Below are positions 1 to 61,434 of a DNA stretch of 64,000 bases, piece by piece. The notes under the pieces were generated by a model. The model had not been told where the DNA came from, ran no database searches, and worked only from the letters and a program-made list of their open reading frames with translations. The translations under genes were made by a program, and so were the position numbers. The stretch is from Paramecium tetraurelia (Eukaryota). The stretch covers positions 1-64,000 of the forward strand of contig CT867997.1 in NCBI GenBank assembly GCA_000165425.1, written 5' to 3'. Every line of letters starts with the position of its first letter. The stretch's first letter is position 1.

Positions 1-699
1 CACACGGATAAGACTCAGGCAGAACGAGTCAGGCGGGTATCCGCCATATGTCTGGACGAGGCAGAACGAGTCAAGCACACAACCAATTGGGCTTCCACGC
101 CCGGGCACCTTCACCTACTTAGCTAGCAAAAATAGTGAGATGGGTATTCTTCCTCTAGGAGAGCCGGGATTCTTTGCCTTCGCGTAACTGTCTATTTCTT
201 TAGAAATACGTAGATAGGGGTGGCTTTACCAAACCCAAACATTAATTTTTGGCTAACCCTCAAATTAAAAAGATAATTAGTGATCATAATATCAAATACA
301 ATGCTAACCTCAAACCCAAACTTGAAGGGTATTTACAACGAAATTCCTTAAAGTTTTAGCGAAACTTAATTATGAAAAAAGTACTTGGTGAATATATGAA
401 TGCCAAAGCCATTATTTTATTCCAAGAACCTGAATTCCTTGAAGAATTGTAAGACCCTATGTAATAATTATCATCCAGAAAATCTAATTGGGATAGGAAT
501 AATCAGACGGCTTAAATAAAGGATAAAATTTTAAGGATTGACCACATTATGCTAATTTTAAAGTTTTTTTAAAAATATATTCTTCATATTGAATCGTATT
601 CTGAAATTGATGAAGATTTTTGGATTCTATGGGCTTTACTAAATAATAGGTTTCTTAGATTTTTTCTGCCTTTCCAAATTTAATTTGAAATTTTAATGT

Positions 700-3600
700 A
701 ATATCTAAATTAATAAGAAGATTTAACTATACCTTTATTATTATAATATTATAATTCTTTTGGGTTTTTCTCAATGGCTAAATCATGATATTTCAATGCT
801 TCTTGCAAATCTATTCAGATGTTATAAAGTAATAGCTATTTATCATACAAATGTATTTTACCTTTGTTATTATAAAACCCAGATTCTTCTGGATTTTTCT
901 CAATAGCAAAATCATAATATTCCAAAGCTTCTTCAAATTTATTCATTTTATCCAACATAAATGCTATAATAGTATGAAGAGTTGAGTTTACCTTTGCTGT
1001 TATAATAGTCGGATTCTCCAGGGTCTTTCTAAATAGCTAAATCATAAAATCTCAATGCTTCTTCTTATCTATTCATGCCTTATAAAGTAATAGCTACAAC
1101 AGTATGCCAATTTGATATTACCTTTGTTTAAATAATAGTTTGATAATTCTGGGTTTTTCTCAATGGCTAAATCATAATAATTCAATGCTTCTTCAAATCT
1201 ATTCATGTTTTATAAAGTAATTGCTGGAATAGTATGAAGATTTAAATTTACCTTTGTTGTTAAATAGGTCAGATAATTCTTCTGGTCGTTTCTAGATAGC
1301 TAAATCATAATATTTCAATGCTTCTTCAAATCTATTCAAGTGTTGTAAAGTCATCTCTATCATAGTATGCAAATTTTGGTTTACCTTTGTTGTTATAATA
1401 ATCTTATAATTCAGTTTTTTTCTTAATAGCTAAGTCATAATATTTCAATGCTTCTTCGTAACTATTCATTTAATTTAAAGCCAATGCTAAATTTAGAAGA
1501 ATTATACCTTTGATATTGTAGGTATCTGCAATTCTTAGTAGTTTATCAAAATATTTAAATCACAAATAGCAATTACTTCTTGCGAATCTCCTCATATTAT
1601 ATAATGCAATTGCTAAAATATATCAAATTAGAAAATACCTTTATTATTATAGTAGTCAGAATCTTCTGGGTTTAACTAAATTGCTAAATTATAATTTTTC
1701 AATGCTTCTTCGAATTCATTAATTTTATCTAAGATTAATGCTATGGTTATAATTTGGTTTTTCTACCTTTGTTATTATAAAAGGTTGAAACTTCTGGACT
1801 TTTCTATATTGCTAAATCAATATATTCTAATGCTTCTTCATTTCTACCTAACAATTCTAAAGTGTCGGCTAGTACATTACGCTATTCAATTATACCTTTG
1901 TTTTTGTAATACTATGGGTTTTCAGGATTTTATTAAATAGCAAAATTATAGTATTCCAAAGCTTCTAATTATCTATTCATTTAATTTAACATAAATGCTA
2001 TGATGGCATACAGATTAGAGTTTACCTTTTTTGTTATAATAGTCTGATTCTGCTGGATTTTTCTAAATAGCTAAATCATAATATTTCAATGCCTCTTATT
2101 ACCTATTGATGTTACTTAATGTATCAGCTTGTAATTATATATATTGAATTCTACCTTTGTTGTTATAATATTCTGCTTCCTCTGGGCTTTTCTGAATTGC
2201 TATATCATATTATTCTAAAGCTTCAATAAATCTCTCCATTTTATTTAAAGTTAATGCTAGGTTATTTTGATTGATTGTATTATACCTTTATTGTTATAAT
2301 AGTCTGATTCATCAGGGTCTTTCTAAATAGCTAGATCATACTGTTCTAAAGCTTCAACTAATCTATTCATTTTATTGAGTGTTATCCCTGAGTTATAATT
2401 TGAGTTATACCTTTACTCTCAAAATATTTTGATATCTCAGGGTTTTTCTAAATAGCTAAATCATAAAATTATAATGCTTCTTCAAATCTATTCATGTTAT
2501 TTAAAGTCATTGCTACAATAGCATGTAAGATTTATTTTTACCTTTGTTATTATAATAGTTTGATTCATTAGGGTTTTTCTCAATAGATAAATCATAAAAT
2601 TTCAATGCTTCTTCATACCTATTGATTTTATTTAATATTATTGCTAAGTTATTAGATTGATTATATTATACCTTTGTTGTTATAATAATTTGATATTTCT
2701 GGTTTTTTTTCAATTGCCAAATCAGAAAACTCCAATGCTTCTACAAATCTATTCAATTTGATTAATATCATCGCTAAGATAATTTAAAAATTTAACTGTA
2801 CCTTTATTATCATAGTTTTCTGAATCTTCTGGGTTTATCGAAATTGCTAAATCAAAATATTTCAATGCTTCTTCATATCTTTTTAATAACTTTAAAATTT
2901 TAGCTATGAATTATGCTATTTTATTTGCCTTTGTTATTATAATAAACTGATTCATCTGGTTAATTCTCTATAGCTAAATTACAATATTCCAAGGCATCTT
3001 CAAATCTATTCAATGTACTTAAAATAAGTGCTTTGAGTTTAAAAAAAAGTTAATAATACCTTTACGACTATAACATTCTGAATCTTCAGGATTTTTTGAG
3101 ATGGCTTGATCAATTTATTCCAAGGCCTCTTCATATCTATTCAACAATTCTAATGTTCCAGCTATGAAGTTATGCTATTTATGTATATACATTTGCTCAT
3201 ATAATAGACTGAGATTTAGGAATTTTTTTAAATAGCCAAATCATAATATTACAGAGCTTCTACTAATCTATTCATTTTATTCAAAGCCAAAGCTAAATTA
3301 TTTTTGAATTTATACCTTTGGTATAATAATAGTGTGATTCTTCAGGATTTTTAGAAATAGCTAAATCAGAAAATTCCAGAGATTCTTCAATTCTATCCAT
3401 TTCTTTTAATATAATCGCTAACATATCAAGAAAACTTAATTTTACCTTTGTTATAATAATAATCTGATTGTTCTGAGGATTTTTAAATTGCTAATTCAAT
3501 ATATTTTAATGCTTCGACAAATTTCTGAGCATTTTGTAATGCAATTGCTAATATTACTGAAATAATATTACCCTTATAGTTATAAAAACTAGATTCCTCA

Positions 3601-5324
3601 GGGTTTTTCTAAATTGCCAAATCATAATATTAGAATGCTTCCTCAAATCTATTCATTTCTGATAAAGTATTGGCTAGGAGATTATGATGATAAATTATGC
3701 CTTTGCTATTATAAAATACAGGATCTTCAGGGTTAATTTTAATAGCTAAATCATAATATTTCAATGCTTCTTAATGCCTATCCAACATATTTAAAACAAT
3801 CCCTATTTACTGATTTAATTATACCCTTGTTCAAATAATAGACTGAGTCTTCAGGATTTTTCTGAATGGCCAAATCATAATTTTCTAATGCTTCTTCATA
3901 TCTACCTAATCTATCTAAAGTGTCTCCTTTGATTTTAGAATAATTTAAATATACCTTTATTATTATATAGATCTGCATCATCAGGGTTCTTCTAAATAGC
4001 TAAATCATAACATTCTAATGCTTCTTTGAATCTGTTCATTTTATCTAATGTCATGGCTTAGAGAATTTACTGATTTTTCATACCTTTATTATTATAATAG
4101 TCTGATTCATTCGGGTTTTTCTTAATTGCTAAATCATAATATTTCAATGCTTCTTTATGTCTAGCCAACTTATCTAAAGTCATCGCTTAGATATCATATG
4201 ATTTACGTACCCTTGTTACAATAATATTCTGATTCTTCAGGGTTTTTCTTAATAGCTAAATCAAACCATTTTAAAGCCTATTTATATTTTTTCATTTTAT
4301 CTAAACTCATTGCTAAATTATATTGAGACTTAATTTTACCTTTATTATTATAATAGGCTGGTATTTCTGGATTTTTCTAAATAGCTAAATCAAAATTTTC
4401 CAAAGCTTCAATAAACCTATTCATCTTATCCAAAGTATTGGCTTGAATATTATTCTTGGTAAATTTATACCTTTGTTAAAATAATATTCAGAATAATGAG
4501 GGTTTTTCGAAATGGCTAAATTATACAGTTCTAACGCTTCTGCAAATCTATTTATTTTATCTAACGCTATCGCTAAGGAAATGTGCAATTTAATTTACCT
4601 TTGTTATTATAATGGTCTGATTCTTCAATGTTTTTCTAAATACCTTAATCAAATTATTTTTATGCTTCTTAAAAACTATTCATTTTAACCAGGATTTTAG
4701 CTATTTCTATGAAGGAGAGTTACATTTAATTTTTTCATTGACTGATTCTTTTGGAAATTTTTAGAGTTCTAAACTCGAAATGTTTTATTCCTATTTCTCC
4801 AATATATTTGCTATTTAAATTTTACTTAAACTTTTTTGTGAATCATTTACTTGGATCTTATTGAAATTAATAACATCCTCCTCCTAAAATTGCATTCCTT
4901 AATCTGATAATTTTGTCAAATTTTTTAATTACAAAGAATGATCGAGTATTTCCTCTTTGAAGCAAATTTGAAAATTATTGTATGATTCAATCTAAATACC
5001 ATCTTATTCCAAAATTTTCATCTGATTTTTGGAACTCATTTCAAAACATTTTTTTTTTTTCTAATTTAATTGACTTTTTTTCCAAAATTTTTTATATTTT
5101 TGTAAATTTGCTTTATTCTGAATATTTTATGGGTGGGATGTAACTGAATCCTTAGCATGTCTATCCTCAAAATTAATTGATTGTTCATCCAAAATTATTC
5201 GCTAGAGATTGTTAGCATCTTTTAGTTAGGTCAAGTTATAAATAGAACAATTTAGTTATTCATCTTCTCTTTATTGACTTACATCCATTTACTATTTTGT
5301 TTCATTTTCACAAAATTACTTCAT
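700..5324 (-). CDS. Large TPR-repeat protein (~31 tandem 34-aa TPRs, ~32 introns); 3' end degenerate and unresolved
   Basis: ATG at 5324 (MKQFCENETKQQMDVSQQ...). Then repeats like A.TL..MNRFEEALKYYDLAIQKNPE.SDYYNNK, each interrupted at the same point (AAA G|GT...AG|C) by a 21-28 nt intron, period ~125-130 bp. Apparent +1 frameshifts at ~805 and ~1582. Confidence 0.9.
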
Positions 5325-10289: not shown

Positions 10290-11675
10290 TCATTTATTTA
10301 TCTCATCAATCTCTTCGATTGAAGCCTCATCATCTACATTTTATTTTTCTTGATTTATATCTTGTGAAATTGATTATTCATAATTTGATAATAAGGATGA
10401 GAAGAAGTCTAAACCGTTTACAAATTATGACTCATCAATCTAAGAATTCTTTAAAAACCAATGAAGAAAGCACTTCTTTTAATACAAATTCTTAAATCTT
10501 GATTAAATATTCTTTAAGGGATTTAATATACGTGTTGAATTAGCCACTAAACAAGCAGTTTTATTTCCTCTTCCTAGTTCTGCATTATGAAATTGGACTG
10601 TACTTTTAGAGCTCATTGCAACTTGATAATTGATGGGTACCCAATCTGCGAAATTAATGCATTTAGAATTCTTAAGTTCATTTATGGTGCTTTGTAAATC
10701 TGAGTAGGGGCAATCTCCTCGATAAAATAAATTCACTCCAAAATATTATGATGGATTAGGAGTAAATTTAATAAATGACCCTGCTTCATTAAACAGGGCT
10801 TAAGAGATTTAAAGTAAATTAACACTTGATGAATTTTATTAGTCTCTTTAAATAAAAGGAGCGTAGGATGTGTGTAAAAATTGCAATTCTGGTAGTAAAA
10901 CAAGATTTTAATACATGTCTTATAAATCTACAAAATTTTCAGAATTAAGTCTTTATGTAGAGGTAATTGATGCTATCATCTAAGCAATCATTTTATTTAA
11001 AATGCCAAAATTAGCCCAATCAATTTCTAATTAGCGCTCACATACCTGGGAGAGCGCTGAGTTATCAATAAATATGTTAAAATTAGAGTATTACTTTAAT
11101 TAATTAATAGTAAAAACTGAGTTATATGGCTCCACAATTGTTGATGTTGAATTCTAATCTGACGAAAGCATGGAAACGGTTGATTTTATTACCTTGGAAA
11201 AATCATCCTCAAATTCATTTAATAAATAGGATGCATAGCTCCCTCCAAAACCACCACTTACAGAATGATATATCATAATCCCTTATAAAGAATCGCATTT
11301 ATCTAATAATTAATGAATTTGATTTCTAAAATTTTCAGAAGCTTGTGCACTTTTATAACTTGAAATCCAAATACTTCCTGAATCTCCTTTAAATTCTTAT
11401 AAAGATTTAGTTGAAAACAATTTCTTAAGTTAACCATTTTTGATTTGATCAATACTGTAATCATCATCATCAGCTATATAAGCTAATGGTACATAGCGAT
11501 TATTTTGAGTCTCAGAAAATAATATTTCACGATTTGTGTCATTCTCTTAAATTTCAGAATTATTTGAAACTGATCCATCCAAATTGATACCATGTTCTAA
11601 ACAATATAACTCCCAAAGTGGACTTGCTAGTTGGGCTCCAGATTATCCAAAATGAAATGAAATGATTTCTCTCAT
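10290..11675 (-). CDS. Divergent alpha-like tubulin (461 aa, intronless)
   Basis: [74 protein letters not shown]; acidic tail EEIDEINK*. Confidence 0.9.
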
Positions 11676-26269: not shown

Positions 26270-27199
26270 TCAGTTATTTAAATCATCAAAATAAGCATGT
26301 TTTAGGGCTTCCTCTGCAGTGATTCTAGCATAAGGGTCATAAACAATCATCTTTGAAAGGAGATCTAAGCCCAATGGACATAAATTATTAATGTCCTTGC
26401 CTAAAGTGGCTGCTGAATTAGTGGGAGTTGGCCATCTTGGGAAAGTGCTTTTAAAGTCTGGTAAAGTGCTGACTCCAGGCCAAGTAGATTCTTTAGGAGT
26501 ACCCATAATCTTAAATATCTTAAATAACTAATCGATTTCTGAATCTCCACAAAATAATGGTCTCTTTTGAGCCATTTCAGCAAAGATGCATCCCAATGAC
26601 CAGATATCGACTGGAGTAGAGTATTGTCGTTACCCTAGCAAAATCTCGGGTGCTCTGTACCATAAGGTAATGACTTCGTGAGTATAGGTTTTAAGAGGTA
26701 AACCAAATGCTCTGGCTAATCCGAAGTCTGCAATTTAAGTGTTTTGTTATTTGATATCTACTAGTATGTTCTATGGTTTTAGGTCTCTGTGAATAACTCT
26801 GTTTTGATGACAATAGTTGAGGGCTTGTAACATTTGGTAGATGAACTTCTTCACTTACATTCTATCTAACTAAGGCACACTTTCCATATATTTTTTAAGA
26901 TCCAAATCTACAAAATCAAAAATTAAATATAATCTTGATTCATCATAAACTACGTCTTTCAAGGGAACAATATTTGGATGTTGAACCTATTATATTTAAT
27001 TTATTGTTACCTCTTTCAATAATGAAATTTCTCTAATCGCCGTTGATGGAACACCTTCATCCTCATGATCCATTCTAATTTTTTTTAGAGCCACGATTTC
27101 ACCAGTTTGATTGTCCCTTGCTTTATAGACTAGTCCATAAGTGCCTTCTCCTATTTTTTCTAATTTTTAATATCTTTCTTCGCTTTATGCAAAATCCAT
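26270..27199 (-). CDS. CDC2: Cyclin-dependent kinase, CDK1/cdc2 family
   Basis: [61 protein letters not shown]; one intron near 26985-27011. Confidence 0.97.
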
Positions 27200-27347
27200 A
27201 ACTAACAGTAATTCGTTAATTTTAATATTTATTATTCCCGTATTTATAAACAACTTTAATACTAATTTATTCTCTCGTTGTTAAAGATAGTGTTTATTAG
27301 TCGAATAAATAATCAAGATGATTAAATATAAAATTAAATTAAATAGG

Positions 27348-27575
27348 ATGTTAAGGAGGAATCTCTTTTACTATTGTAAGTTTTGTAATAAAGACACGGA
27401 GGGCGAAGAATTGTACACGAAAAGTGAGATGACCAACCTTTGTTACTTCTTATTATTCCTCTGTTTCATCGTGCCTGGTCTATTTGCAATGACAACCAAC
27501 AAGTTCAGAGATAAACGAATATTTTGTACCTACTGCGGAGCATAAATAATAAAAGAGAAATACACGATATTTTGA
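27348..27575 (+). CDS. Small LITAF-like zinc-ribbon membrane protein
   Basis: CKFC, a hydrophobic segment (CYFLLFLCFIVPGLF), then CTYCG. An upstream ATG at 27318 is also possible. Confidence 0.65.
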
Positions 27576-57981: not shown

Positions 57982-60900
57982 TCATTTTTATTTTTTATTT
58001 TAAAAAAATCGTTACAACTTTTCTTCGATATCCTTATCCAACATTAAATTATTTTTTATTTGAGTAATTTCTACCATTTAGGATTATGCTTAAGTTTTAC
58101 CATCATCCTCTATTTCAGTTTCTAATCTAATATCATCAACGATTTGAACATTATCAGTAAATATTATCATATCATCTTATTGTTCTCTTCTGATCCATGG
58201 AGCTTCAGGTTTATTTTCAACGGACAAAGGCTAAAAATAGGATATTAATTAATTACCCCGATATTTTAAATTAACTATTTATCAAAAACTATTGATAATG
58301 ATGGAGGAGATAATTTGGGCAAGCTAAAAGATAATCTAATTTTAAATCCATCCACATATACAATAGGAACTTAGAAACAAATAATATTTTCTTTGGGTTC
58401 ATCATATAAGCAGATCACTCGTTAGTAATCAATAGATTGTTAATCCTTCAAAAGGATTTATTCAATATGCATTAAGAGAATTTACAAACCTTCTTATTTT
58501 GCCTCATTTATATTTTCAATCAACTATTTACATTTCTCTTTTGCTTTTTTAAATTATTTTAAAATGATTAAGCAAATCAATTCATTAAATTTGATCTCTA
58601 AGATTTCTAATAGATCTGCATCTTCCTCGTCTTCAGTAAGTTCAAAAAACTCTTCGTCACTAAATAAATCAGTTTGGCTTCCTCTCTATCTTAGTCGTTT
58701 TTCTGTTATTGAAAGTTCCTTCTGACTTTTTGCCATTTAGAAATCCTTCAATGCCTCTTCATATTTCTCCAAATGAAACAAGAATACTCCTCTAAATATA
58801 AACGCATGGAACTACTAAAATAACCTTCCTTTTCCTCTTGTTAGTTACTTTAGACTATTGACAGCTCTATTTAAATTATTTTTTAATTCATGTTGCTCAC
58901 TCTCGCTTTCTTCATTAAAATATATTTATTGATCATCCTTAAATACTAATCTCAAGGCTTATAAAATATCCTTATCAAATTCTGCAGTTTAATCTTTAGT
59001 CAATTTATGAAGTCTATTGATATCTTCTTAACAACTGCGCAAATCACTTAAAACCATGTAGCATTCCGATCTTAACTGTAACAACTTAGGGTTATTTTTG
59101 AAATCTTTATTATTGGAGTAGGCTTTGATTGCATCCTCTATGGCAGCATTGGCAAATAAAAAGTTGCCAGCCCAAACATGCATTCTTGGATCATCTTATA
59201 ATATATGAATACATTATTGTAAATCCTGGAAGGCAGAATTGGAATCTCCACTTAAAAAATGACATTTAGCTCTATTTAAATAAGCATCAGGAAGAGTTTC
59301 ATCCAATGTTAAACAGATGCTAAAATCATTTAAAGAGTGATGATATTATTTAAGAATTCCATACACCATTCCCCTAAAATAAAAATATTTAGCAACATTG
59401 TCTTCTGATTTTTGAATGGCTGACTCAATATCTGCCAAAGCCTCATTAGTTTATCCTAAAAAGCACTTCACTATGGATCTCACATAATAGATGTTTGCAT
59501 TCTAGTCATTTAAACTTTGAGCCTTGTCCAACAATTCTAACCCTTTGACTATATCCTTGTATTGATCGCTTTTTTTTTTAAAGGCTTAATTTATCAATGT
59601 AGCTCCCTAATAGAAAGAAGGTTCCATTTTCTTTTGGAAAATCTTTTATGCTTTTTGAAAGAATTCCATGCCAGAATTGAATTGCCCTGCTTAAATTTTC
59701 AAGATGCCCTCACATAAGAATTTATTATAATGAACACTGGATTCAGCTGGTTGAATTTCCAATAAATATTTATAGTCCTCCAAAGCTTTTTGGTGTTTGG
59801 ACAAACAAAAATGACCATAAGCTCGATAAGCATAGAACAAAGGCTTAAGAAAATCATTTAACTAATGATGACTTTGAATTTCTTGAAAATTGTTAAGACT
59901 CTCCTGAAATTTTCTTTTCATCAAATGAATGACAGCCTATAATCAATCAATCAATCTATTACTTCAGTAAATAATCTAAATTTCTCTAAGTAGGTTTTAT
60001 CAGTATCTAAAAGTGCCGATCTATTGAATGTATGAAATGCGGCATAAAAGTCTCTTTATTCAATCTTCATTTTGGCAATTTCATAGAGCGATTTAGTGAC
60101 CGCTTTTTTAGAATTATTATGTTTGATCGCTTATTCAAAACATAATAAGGCTTCGGTAGGATTCTCTAGAATATTCATATTGAATACTTGTTTTTAATCT
60201 ACAAAGTCCTTTAAAGTAGTAGGCTTCAGAATTCGTAGGGTCAGTTTCTAATAGTTTACTTAAATCTATTGCACATTCGTCATATTCTTGACTTTCAAAA
60301 AGAGTTATTGCTTTTTTCAGCAAAGCAGCATTGCCCACAGCCTACTCACAGTTTATGGCCTTTTAATAACATTTAATGGCTTCCTTATATTGGCTCTGCA
60401 TTCTAAAACAATCAGCTTTGCCCAAATAGCCTAATCCTTTTTGAGGACTTAACTGAATGGCCATATTGAAGTCTTATTCTGCTTTATCAATTTAATTTAG
60501 TTTGGTATAGAGTTTACCTCTATAAATAAAGGCATCATAATATCTTGGGAACATTAAGATGACTTTATTCAGAATTTAGATTGCTGAGTCTATCTCATTC
60601 ATTTTTTTATGAGATATTGCTAACAATAAATAAATATTCTTTCTATGTGCAGCATCCTATTAGATTACATATTGAAATTCTGCTATTGCTTTTGAATAGA
60701 GTTATTTACCAAGATAGCCTATACCTAAAAAGTAATGTCCTTCCAATATTCTTATATCGCTTTCTAAGCACTTTTTCAATTGTCTAAAATTATATAGGTA
60801 GAATACTCAATAGCTTCTTCAATTTGCTTCTCTCTTAATAATTGTTTGCCTTTCTCCAAGAATTTAATAGCTCTAGGGTTGTAATCATCGAGAGGTTTAG

Positions 60901-61434
60901 TTGTATCACTCTAGAATCCACTGTGTTCTTAAAGACCTTTGATGAGGTGGTTCTCAAAGCTCATATCAACTGTCTATTATCCCTCCATGCTGTTGTTTAT
61001 TTTGGATTACTTTTTTTGCATGGTTTGGGAGAGCTTTTACTTATTCGGAAGGTACCAATTTTGTATTGGATTACTTTATCTGGTTTACTTCTTCCTATCA
61101 TTATAATATAGATGTACATTTCTTTGCAAAAACTTCCATTGCGCTTTGTACTATTAAACAAAATATTAAACAACTATTTTTGAGCCTTCTTTTCTTAACT
61201 AAAGTTTGAATTCTACTTTTTTTTGAGATTATGTTCCAAGCTTTCTCCACTTGAAATATTGAATGAGGGTTATCTGGGTGGGTAAGGTTACGATTATTTT
61301 TTATAATGTGGAGTTGGATTTTCAGAAACAAAGTGTTCAATATGTGACTTTGCAGGAGAAAAGGTTTATTTTGGAAAGAACGACACCGCTTGATTCTTGA
61401 CTGTTTGAGGAGGCTTGTTTGACCTATATTACAT
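57982..61434 (-). CDS. Large TPR-repeat protein
   Basis: Multiple TPRs (e.g. AYYFKGL, AFIYRGKLY, AYLNRAKC) with only a few introns; acidic C-terminal region. Confidence 0.85.

What the first reader, a model, noticed from the sequence alone, without database searches (positions are those of the whole stretch)
700..4730. TPR gene built from ~31 tandem 'one TPR exon + one mini-intron' cassettes
Seen: each 34-aa TPR unit is encoded by a ~102-nt exon, and every intron sits at the same phase-1 position (..AAC AAA G|GT..AG|C..). I count ~32 introns in ~4 kb, period ~125-130 bp. Several introns resemble each other (GTAAATTTAAATCTTCATACTATTCCAG, GTAAACTCAACTCTTCATACTATTATAG, GTAAAATAAATCTTACATGCTATTGTAG), so exon and intron were duplicated as one unit. 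The other TPR gene here (57982-61434) lacks this layout. Known: typical Paramecium genes have only a few introns, and Tetrahymena has fast-evolving LRR genes made of uniform 90-bp exons. Inference: all exons are frame-symmetric, so unequal crossover, conversion or exon skipping can add, drop or swap binding modules without frameshift. This could be a TPR-based modular receptor-diversification system.
Basis: partly seen in the sequence, partly recalled or inferred. Interest (0 to 1): 0.8.

Follow-up and report, generated by a model that had tools for sequence, protein, structure and literature searches.

The report
Paramecium TPR gene, one repeat per exon
A Paramecium gene for a long TPR scaffold protein is built from about 31 nearly identical-length 102-base exons, each followed by a tiny intron at the same codon position; the layout is real, but it looks like an old, stable product of tandem duplication rather than an active diversity generator.

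Summary
It lies on the minus strand, about 705-5324. A 601-nt N-terminal exon is followed by 31 TPR exons: 28 of 31 are exactly 102 nt in the window, 29 of 31 after differences seen in an independent DNA run. They are separated by 32 candidate introns of 21-29 nt (GTA start 30/32, AG end 32/32). All 32 are phase 1, inside the codon for TPR position 8.

Exon length is fixed while spacer length varies, and 25 of 32 spacers are not multiples of three, so the TPR frame exists only if they are spliced. Splicing of this gene was not shown: RNA contigs gave no junctions.

Residual intron similarity and the shared position support duplication of exon plus intron as one unit. The units are old: at most 81% nt identity, no decay with distance, and pS>pN in 98.8% of pairs.

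Published Paramecium data report no exon skipping. No receptor or signalling domain was found. The diversification-system reading is therefore not supported.

P. tetraurelia TPR genes with "TPR coding exons" are already in print (Vitali 2019). Per-repeat exon arrays are known in Tetrahymena (LRR) and Ectocarpus (TPR). This is a new member of a known kind.

The parts
4724..5324 (-). Putative N-terminal exon (ATG at 5324-5322; 200 codons + 1 nt, ends in phase 1). It is Q/K/N/E-rich with no known domain.
   Evidence: ORF under code 6. Codon-usage frame test: +16.7 in frame, -3.2 to -31.9 in the 5 other frames. No Pfam family. 0 homologues among candidates of 350-2000 aa and 0 of 1.84 billion representatives. 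RNA-seq run X20 has an identical 172-nt contig at 5126-5297. Its being part of this gene is inferred from the phase-1 junction to intron 1.
4701..4723 (-). Intron 1 (23 nt, GTAAC...ATAG), phase 1. It joins the N-terminal exon to the first, degenerate TPR exon.
   Evidence: If retained, the frame reaches TGA after 14 codons.
733..4700 (-). Array of 31 TPR exons separated by introns 2-31; 28 of 31 exons are exactly 102 nt.
   Evidence: TRF period 130, 30.7 copies. Exon and intron table. Pfam TPR_1/TPR_2. Per-position conservation matches the TPR signature: A8, L11, A20, Y24, A27, P32, Y4.
3674..3700 (-). Intron 9 with a GC donor (GCATAA...CTAG, 27 nt). It is 3n and stop-free, so read-through stays in frame (+9 aa).
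   Evidence: The same letters stand in DNA run X1 (record 7, 2854-3771, 0 differences).
2904..2928 (-). Intron 15 with a GC donor (GCAAAT...ATAG, 25 nt). If not spliced, the frame reaches TGA after 18 codons.
   Evidence: X1 contig 2854-3771 shows no difference.
1508..1612 (-). TPR exon 25. It is 105 nt with an in-frame TGA in the window. In DNA run X1 it is 102 nt and intact, because three bases are absent at + strand 1529, 1539 and 1582.
   Evidence: (tables 3, 4; record 4). The X1 version reads as a full 34-aa unit. Five T>G differences at 1356-1416 also restore consensus residues (A8, N31, P32, S1). Probably local errors of the window's assembly.
1252..1356 (-). TPR exon 27, 105 nt (35 aa). 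It is the only in-frame length variant.
733..835 (-). TPR exon 31, 103 nt. One extra base (GCAAGAAGC instead of GAAGAAGC) shifts the frame to TGA at 785-783. This is the end of the CDS as the window stands.
   Evidence: The same extra base in exon 25 is absent from run X1, so this one may also be an assembly error. X1 cover here is too thin to tell.
705..732 (-). Intron-like spacer 32 (28 nt, GTATAG...TTAG). It is followed by a degenerate TPR-like stretch (DITLKFQIKFGKAEK...). It is inside the CDS only if the frameshift in exon 31 is not real.
   Evidence: The codon-usage test of the tail is weak: +7.2 for 500-702, fading below about 520.

Best explanation
This is a macronuclear gene of a Paramecium aurelia-complex species. 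An exact window ORF is in NCBI/UniRef, and its 90% cluster mate is from P. octaurelia.

The protein is about 1,240 aa. It has an orphan, low-complexity N-terminus of about 200 aa followed by about 30 consecutive TPRs. Such an array would form a long TPR superhelix, that is, a protein-protein interaction scaffold.

The gene arose by repeated tandem duplication of a roughly 130-bp DNA unit made of one 102-nt exon plus one tiny spliceosomal intron. Every copy inherited the same intron position, after the first base of the codon for TPR position 8 in the middle of helix A. That gives a uniform phase 1 and an exon length of exactly 3 x 34 nt.

Selection has since held exon length and the TPR signature residues fixed, while intron sequence and length drifted within the 20-35-nt range that the Paramecium spliceosome accepts. 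Most introns (25/32) are not multiples of three, so a retained intron runs into UGA and would be visible to NMD.

Shown: the anatomy, the TPR identity, the coding constraint, and the age and lack of homogenisation of the units.

Inferred: splicing of each intron, the scaffold function, and the 5' and 3' limits of the CDS.
For: - Period and copies.
- Intron position, phase, ends and lengths. Lengths of 21-29 nt lie inside the published 20-35-nt range, in which 99.9% of Paramecium introns fall at a mean of 25.1 nt (PMC5663052).
- Exon length is invariant (28/31 = 102 nt) while spacer length varies (sd 2.2).
- TPR families. Signature positions conserved: L11 29/29, I28 29/29, K7 29/29, Y4 28/29, A20 27/29, A27 26/29, P32 25/29. 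Variable positions are 2, 9, 12, 13, 34.
- Coding constraint: pN 0.26 against pS 0.53, with pS>pN in 98.8% of 406 pairs. Identity by codon position is 0.715/0.765/0.583.
- Joined exons score +167.7 in the true frame against -145.6 and -191.4 in the others.
- Co-duplication: introns are more alike than shuffles (0.627 against 0.599 +/- 0.004). Best pairs are 0.86 and 0.82. Mantel exon-intron r is about 0.15, p about 0.03.
- Retention: 22 of 25 non-3n introns give TGA within the roughly 38 codons examined.
- Family context: the best protein hits are P. tetraurelia and P. octaurelia TPR proteins with the same unit 'KA.TL.KMNRFEEAL..YDLAIQKNPE'.
- Paralogue splicing: RNA contigs of runs X18 and X20, but not DNA run X1, hold a paralogue's intron-free junction ...DYYNGK|ANTLDKMNRF... 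(table 5c).
- Literature: Vitali et al. 2019 describe 'TPR coding exons' in P. tetraurelia (PMC6771405, Fig. 8E legend read).
Against: - No RNA contig laid on the stretch showed any of the 32 junctions of this gene. Splicing and expression of the TPR part are therefore unproven.
- The gene's product was not found in public protein sets.
- Two introns have GC donors, which are unusual. I found no statement on GC-AG use in Paramecium (listing only).
- The window carries an in-frame TGA in exon 25 and a +1 shift in exon 31. The first is absent from an independent DNA run; the second could not be checked.
- The Mantel correlation between exon and intron similarity is weak. Single intron pairs are not beyond the best shuffled pairs (the null maximum reached 0.88).
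Confidence: 0.75

Rival explanations
1. The array is a decaying or already dead gene (a pseudogene). It would be a former TPR gene near a scaffold end that is no longer expressed as a full-length protein.
For: - The product is absent from public protein collections, although another ORF of the window is present exactly.
- Two introns have GC donors.
- Exon 31 has a +1 frameshift and exon 25 an in-frame TGA in the window.
- No junction-spanning RNA contig was seen.
Against: - 28-29 of 31 exons keep exactly 102 nt, and all 32 spacers keep AG and a G(T/C)A start. Indels would be expected in a neutral array whose spacers do vary in length.
- The exon-25 defects are absent from DNA run X1, and all 8 differences there restore the consensus or the frame.
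- pS>pN and conserved signature residues. These reflect past constraint, not necessarily present constraint.
Confidence: 0.15
2. One reading: an active TPR module-diversification system. Unequal crossover, conversion or exon skipping would continually add, drop or swap binding modules.
For: - All exons are phase 1-1 symmetric and cut at equivalent structural positions, so any whole-unit gain or loss stays in frame.
- The variable residues are the usual ligand-facing TPR positions 2, 9, 12, 13 (the assignment of these positions to the binding face is recalled knowledge).
- Analogous hypotheses exist for Tetrahymena LRR genes (PMC6564038) and Ectocarpus NB-ARC-TPR genes (PMC3341825).
- The closest exon pairs have pN/pS of about 0.5-1.1. 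These are 102-nt comparisons and therefore noisy.
Against: - No exon pair is above 81% identical, neighbours are no more alike than distant units, and there are no duplicated blocks. This is the opposite of the young, near-identical exon clades reported in Tetrahymena.
- Exon skipping has not been observed in Paramecium (PMC5663052).
- Introns of 21-29 nt cannot hold reserve exons as in Ectocarpus.
- No signalling or receptor domain was found.
- The same word content stands in 15 runs of 11 studies.
Confidence: 0.07
3. The spacers are not introns. They would be translated linkers or parts of a non-coding satellite.
For: 7 of 32 spacers are multiples of three and stop-free, so they could be read through. 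No junction was seen in RNA contigs.
Against: - 25 of 32 spacers shift the frame, and 22 of these lead to TGA.
- The TPR frame is recovered only after removing each spacer.
- The spacers carry the Paramecium intron ends and lengths.
- A paralogue's junction is intron-free in RNA contigs.
Confidence: 0.02

Closest known systems
Paramecium tetraurelia IES-dense TPR gene family (Vitali, Hagen & Catania 2019, Genome Res, PMC6771405; example PTET.51.1.G1500001)
   Same: Same genus and same repeat type. The Fig. 8E legend speaks of 'TPR coding exons', meaning one TPR per exon. The best protein hits of this gene are P. tetraurelia and P. octaurelia TPR proteins with the same unit consensus.
   Different: [quoted passage not shown] Whether this gene has such IESs cannot be seen in macronuclear sequence. 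In the passages I read, the paper does not analyse intron phase, exon length or the age of the units. This gene's N-terminus is unrelated to that of the best paralogue P0001.
Tetrahymena LRR genes with tandem arrays of exactly 90-bp exons (Xiong et al. 2019, PLoS Biol, PMC6564038)
   Same: Both are ciliate genes with arrays of exons of one exact length. Each exon encodes one repeat, with an extreme bias to a single intron phase. Both are interpreted as clonal expansion of an exon-intron unit.
   Different: There it is LRR, not TPR; 90 bp, not 102 bp; phase 2, not phase 1. There are thousands of genes with young, still nucleotide-conserved exon clades and evidence of ectopic recombination. Here there is one gene in the window, and its units are old (at most 81% identical) and not homogenised.
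Ectocarpus NB-ARC-TPR genes with repetitive TPR exons (Zambounis et al. 2012, MBE, PMC3341825; Teng et al. 2023 seen only as a citation)
   Same: Each TPR is encoded by its own exon, and a diversification or immune-receptor hypothesis was built on that.
   Different: The exons there are 126 nt (TPR plus linker); the 102-nt ones are regarded as truncated. They are attached to an NB-ARC domain. Long introns contain inactivated exons, and alternative splicing is reported. Here there is no NB-ARC, the introns are 21-29 nt, and no exon skipping is known in the genus.
Long TPR superhelices such as the O-GlcNAc transferase TPR domain and consensus TPR proteins
   Same: The sequence signature and uninterrupted 34-aa periodicity are shared. 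The paralogue P0001 matches OGT TPRs (E=2.6e-24) and engineered or consensus TPR proteins (E=2.1e-30).
   Different: There is no catalytic domain here. About 30 repeats is far more than in most TPR proteins. No structure was predicted for this gene, because the spliced protein could not be handed to the folding tool.

Membership tests
TPR repeat proteins (Pfam TPR_1/TPR_2 clan) | 34-residue repeats that match the TPR profiles | tested here: met
   TPR_1 E=7.8e-13 and TPR_2 E=3.4e-12 on ORF 3426-3788. TPR_14 and TPR_1 match on ORF 1699-2079.
TPR repeat proteins (Pfam TPR_1/TPR_2 clan) | Signature residues at positions 4, 7, 8, 11, 20, 24, 27, 32 (signature recalled from the literature) | tested here: met
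   Across 29 units: Y4 28, A8 24 (G 3), L11 29, A20 27, Y24 18 (F 4), A27 26, P32 25. Position 7 is K in 29 of 29, not the usual L.
Paramecium IES-dense TPR gene family (Vitali 2019) | TPR motifs each encoded by their own exon | tested here: met
   31 exons, of which 28 are exactly 102 nt. The family feature is taken from the Fig. 8E legend.
Paramecium IES-dense TPR gene family (Vitali 2019) | Germline IES near the 5' end of nearly every TPR exon | not testable with these tools
   The window is macronuclear and no micronuclear sequence was available. TA dinucleotides are frequent everywhere (for example position 11 in 24 of 29 units), so they are uninformative.
Paramecium IES-dense TPR gene family (Vitali 2019) | Sequence relatedness to other Paramecium TPR-array proteins | tested here: met
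   P0001 (P. tetraurelia) E=2.9e-69. P0002, P0004 and P0006 (P. octaurelia) E=6.9e-32 to 3.9e-14.
Paramecium spliceosomal introns | Length 20-35 nt with GTA...(T)AG ends | tested here: met
   All 32 are 21-29 nt. GTA 30/32 and GCA 2/32 at the 5' end; TAG 24, AAG 6, CAG 2 at the 3' end. Range taken from PMC5663052.
Paramecium spliceosomal introns | Removed from the RNA | tested here: inconclusive
   No junction of this gene was seen in contigs of X17, X18 or X20. Only a paralogue's spliced junction was seen.
Tetrahymena-type exact-length exon arrays (90-bp LRR genes) | LRR repeats, 90-bp exons, phase 2 | tested here: not met
   TPR, 102 nt, phase 1. It is an analogue, not a member.
Tetrahymena-type exact-length exon arrays (90-bp LRR genes) | Young exon clades that still share nucleotide conservation, with signs of ectopic recombination | tested here: not met
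   Maximum exon-exon identity is 0.81 and the mean is 0.69-0.71. No distance decay.
Ectocarpus NB-ARC-TPR candidate receptors | NB-ARC domain N-terminal to the TPR array | tested here: not met
   The N-terminal 199-214 aa have no Pfam family at E<=0.01.
Ectocarpus NB-ARC-TPR candidate receptors | Inactivated reserve exons inside introns | tested here: not met
   The introns are 21-29 nt. tblastn with the exon peptides finds nothing else in the window except a weak hit at about 60400.

The most novel reading that the evidence does not exclude
In the germline, each of the roughly 31 cassettes may carry a third element: an IES near the exon's 5' end, as reported for the P. tetraurelia TPR family. 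Every TPR module would then be bracketed by two independent excision systems, DNA-level PiggyMac excision and RNA-level splicing. Here 7 of the 32 introns are 3n and stop-free, so retaining any of them would stay in frame and escape NMD. Environment-dependent failure of either system at single cassettes could then tune or vary the TPR scaffold somatically, without any change to the germline array.
Probability: 0.12. Interest if true: 0.65.

Novelty: new member of a known kind. Interest (0 to 1): 0.36.

Why it matters
With 31-32 introns, against a published mean of 2.3 per Paramecium gene, this gene is an extreme outlier. It is a clean natural example of intron multiplication by tandem duplication of an exon-intron unit in a genome with 25-nt introns.

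It gives 32 same-position introns of different sequence, length class (3n or not) and donor type (GT or GC) within a single transcript. That makes a useful internal test bed for how tiny-intron splicing fidelity and NMD surveillance depend on intron features.

It also warns that the public assembly has local errors here. These errors probably kept the gene out of the protein sets.

It does not provide evidence for a new diversity-generating mechanism.

Tried and rejected
- **RNA evidence.** I laid contigs of X20 (RNA-seq), X17 and X18 (guessed RNA) and X1 (DNA). The RNA contigs covered only 12-13 of 30 bins, and the listed pieces were mostly 31-45 nt that also occur at high depth in DNA (family-wide words). 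No intron-sized joint of this gene was reported, so expression and splicing of the TPR part remain open. The shares of 0.43-0.54 of words in X17-X20 cannot be read as spliced mRNA.
- **Whole genome.** None is held for this window (error). A genome-wide count of 102-nt phase-1 exon arrays was therefore impossible.
- **N-terminal exon as a handle for orthologues.** There were 0 hits at 350-2000 aa and 0 hits among 1.84 billion representatives. Repeat numbers in other species could not be compared.
- **Own protein in databases.** It was not found among 545 candidates of 211-2000 aa. I did not search the 'near' or 'shorter' length classes; one protein search was left unused.
- **Earlier findings of this scan.** Three look-ups returned nothing.
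- **IES footprints.** TA frequency along the unit is uninformative. The loose ends of X1 contigs at 2584 and 2750 do not look like IES ends and sit at different places in their exons.
- **3' tail after spacer 32.** The codon-usage test is weak, so the true stop is undecided.
- **Window 1-340.** No Rfam family, no plasmid or vector match, and a fold no better than shuffles (z=-1.0).
- **Literature.** Searches found no paper that analyses the phase or exon length of Paramecium TPR genes. The closest is the Fig. 8E legend of PMC6771405. The supplements of that paper were not opened and may list this gene.
- **Structure.** No structure was predicted, because the spliced protein is a joined sequence and was not handed to the tools.
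Full report
**What is there**

The window is AT-rich (GC 0.24-0.34). It reads as a ciliate macronuclear sequence in which only TGA is a stop. One long ORF of the window (10290-11675, tubulin/FtsZ-like) is present letter for letter in NCBI/UniRef/EukProt. Its 90% cluster mate is from Paramecium octaurelia. The window therefore comes from a species of the P. aurelia complex.

Tandem Repeats Finder reports one large array, 728-4687, period 130, 30.7 copies, 66% matches. Rows at periods 256 and 393 describe the same array. The coding strand is the minus strand.

**Gene model**

Scripts locate 32 spacers that begin right after ...AA(A/G)G. Their coordinates are listed under the observation check.

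- Lengths are 21-29 nt (mean 26.6, sd 2.2).
- 30 begin with GTA and 2 with GCA.
- All end in AG (TAG 24, AAG 6, CAG 2).
- All follow the first base of a codon.

These values fit published Paramecium introns: mean 25.1 nt, with 99.9% between 20 and 35 nt (Saudemont et al. 2017, PMC5663052, passages read).

Of the 31 exons between the spacers, 28 are exactly 102 nt; the others are 105, 105 and 103 nt. Upstream, an ORF from the ATG at 5324 to 4724 (200 codons + 1 nt) joins the first spacer in phase 1.

Removing the spacers gives one frame that encodes about 30 consecutive 34-residue TPRs. Pfam TPR_1 and TPR_2 match read-through ORFs at E=7.8e-13 and 3.4e-12.

Across 29 full units the TPR signature is kept: L11 29/29, I28 29/29, K7 29/29, Y4 28/29, A20 27/29, A27 26/29, P32 25/29, A/G8 27/29. 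Positions 2, 9, 12, 13 and 34 vary most.

The exon is out of register with the structural repeat. The intron splits the codon of position 8, inside helix A. Each exon therefore encodes the end of one helix A, helix B, the loop and the start of the next helix A.

**Why the spacers must be introns**

Exon length is fixed while spacer length drifts. 25 of 32 spacers are not multiples of three. If retained, 22 of those 25 lead to TGA within the roughly 38 codons examined.

The 7 spacers that are multiples of three (introns 4, 6, 9, 10, 21, 23, 26) are all stop-free. If retained, each would insert 7-9 residues in frame.

Joined exons score +167.7 in the true frame on a codon-usage test trained on ten long ORFs of the window. 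The other frames score -145.6 and -191.4.

**Quality of the window sequence**

As given, exon 25 (1612-1508) is 105 nt and holds an in-frame TGA. A contig of the independent DNA run X1 (1,171 nt, 1309-2482) lacks three bases at + strand 1529, 1539 and 1582. It also has G for T at 1356, 1366, 1405, 1415 and 1416.

With these eight differences, exon 25 becomes a perfect 34-residue unit of 102 nt. The five substitutions restore consensus residues.

Fifteen runs of eleven studies all hold the same 0.94 of the sampled words. That is what a few window-specific differences would give. I read the window as carrying local assembly errors here.

Exon 31 (835-733) has the same kind of extra base (GCAAGAAGC for GAAGAAGC), which shifts the frame to TGA at 785-783. 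X1 cover there is too thin to tell whether this one is real. The CDS therefore ends either at 783 or beyond spacer 32, in a degenerate TPR-like tail whose coding signal is weak.

The two GC donors (3700, 2928) stand unchanged in X1 (record 7).

**Expression**

RNA contigs of X17, X18 and X20 gave no junction of this gene, and cover was patchy. Splicing and expression of the TPR part are therefore not shown.

X20 (RNA-seq) has an identical 172-nt contig in the N-terminal exon. That exon also has coding-like codon usage: +16.7 in frame, with all five other frames negative.

One joint seen in X18 and X20, but not in DNA run X1, reads in frame ...DYYNGK|ANTLDKMNRF.... This is an intron-free TPR-TPR junction of a paralogue. 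It hints that the family is spliced at this site.

**History of the array**

Introns are slightly but clearly more alike than shuffled ones (0.627 against 0.599 +/- 0.004). A sub-family (18, 22, 27-30) shares ..CATACTAT..TAG, and the best pairs reach 0.86 (17/20) and 0.82 (28/30). Exon and intron similarity correlate weakly (Mantel r about 0.15, p about 0.03). Together with the identical position and phase, this supports duplication of exon plus intron as one unit.

The units are old, however:

- Mean exon identity is 0.69-0.71 and the maximum is 0.81.
- Neighbours (0.686) are no more alike than units 2-12 apart (0.675-0.702).
- No duplicated blocks stand out.
- Among 406 pairs, pN is 0.26 and pS is 0.53, with pS>pN in 98.8%.

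There is thus no sign of recent expansion, unequal crossover or gene conversion.

Frame symmetry is real. The proposed routes to diversity find no support:

- Exon skipping was not observed in Paramecium, and is thought to be precluded by the short-intron spliceosome (PMC5663052).
- The array is not homogenised.
- The introns are too small to hold reserve exons.
- The non-TPR part has no Pfam family and no homologue anywhere, so nothing marks the protein as a receptor.

**What is known**

- Vitali et al. 2019 (PMC6771405 and its preprint, passages read) report that P. tetraurelia TPR genes are the most IES-dense genes: up to 10 IES/kb and 1,135 IESs. [quoted passage not shown]
- Arnaiz et al. 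2012 (PMC3464196, passage read) note multi-copy IESs arising from expansion of TPR and WD40 repeats. The one-TPR-per-exon layout in Paramecium is therefore already visible in print and in the annotation. I found no analysis of its phase, exon length or age.
- Analogues are the exactly 90-bp, phase-2 LRR exon arrays of Tetrahymena (PMC6564038) and the per-exon TPRs of Ectocarpus NB-ARC-TPR genes (PMC3341825; PMC11378527). The same diversification idea was proposed for both.
- The best protein relatives of this gene are P. tetraurelia P0001 (856 aa, E=2.9e-69) and three P. octaurelia proteins with the same unit consensus. Their models contain non-TPR stretches directly after '..KG' at unit borders. 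I take these, by inference only, to be unspliced introns at the same junction.
- The second TPR gene of the window has exons with several TPRs each, and only one weak tblastn hit to the array's exons.

**Verdict**

The co-duplication inference is supported. The diversification system is not supported.

The gene is best read as an old member of the Paramecium per-exon TPR family. It encodes a long TPR scaffold and is probably functional. It is missing from public protein sets, likely because of local assembly errors and two GC donors. A pseudogene remains a minor alternative.

Noticed in passing
window 1356-1582: The window differs from an independent DNA contig (run X1) by five T>G substitutions and three extra bases, all within 230 nt. 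All eight changes restore the consensus or the frame in the X1 version, so the assembly probably has a low-quality patch here.
   Followed up: yes
window 1-340: The first ~240 bases are much more GC-rich than the rest. They contain GGCAGAACGAGTCA twice (about 18-31 and 60-73). They are followed by telomere-like CCAAACCCAAAC at 229-240 and CAAACCCAAAC at 313-323. There is no Rfam family, no plasmid or vector match, and the fold is no better than shuffles. The origin is unexplained; it may be a scaffold-end artefact or an unknown element.
   Followed up: partly
window 3548-3571, 3674-3700, 4057-4083, 4313-4339, 2128-2154, 1869-1895, 1487-1507: Seven of the 32 introns are multiples of three and contain no in-frame TGA. 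Their retention would be invisible to NMD and would insert 7-9 residues into helix A.
   Followed up: partly
table 5c (joint 4051|12 letters|1646): RNA contigs of two studies (X18, X20), but not DNA run X1, contain a TPR-TPR junction without an intron (...DYYNGK|ANTLDKMNRF...). It belongs to a paralogue, which shows that relatives of this gene are expressed and spliced at the same codon.
   Followed up: partly
window 58167-61300 (minus strand): A second TPR gene has large exons (ORFs of 584 and 223 aa, several TPRs each). It is unrelated in layout and only weakly similar to the array.
   Followed up: partly
window 10290-11675 (minus strand): An intron-free 461-aa tubulin/FtsZ-GTPase-like ORF is present exactly in public protein sets. 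Its 90% cluster mate from P. octaurelia is 495 aa long.
   Followed up: no
window 26270-27469 (minus strand): This ORF carries a PSTAIRE-type motif (…[13 protein letters not shown]…) and looks like a cyclin-dependent kinase. The label comes from recall of the motif, not from a family search.
   Followed up: no
proteins P0001, P0004: Public gene models of paralogous Paramecium TPR proteins contain non-TPR stretches starting right after 'KG' at repeat borders. These look like unspliced or mis-spliced mini-introns, which suggests the family is systematically mis-annotated.
   Followed up: no
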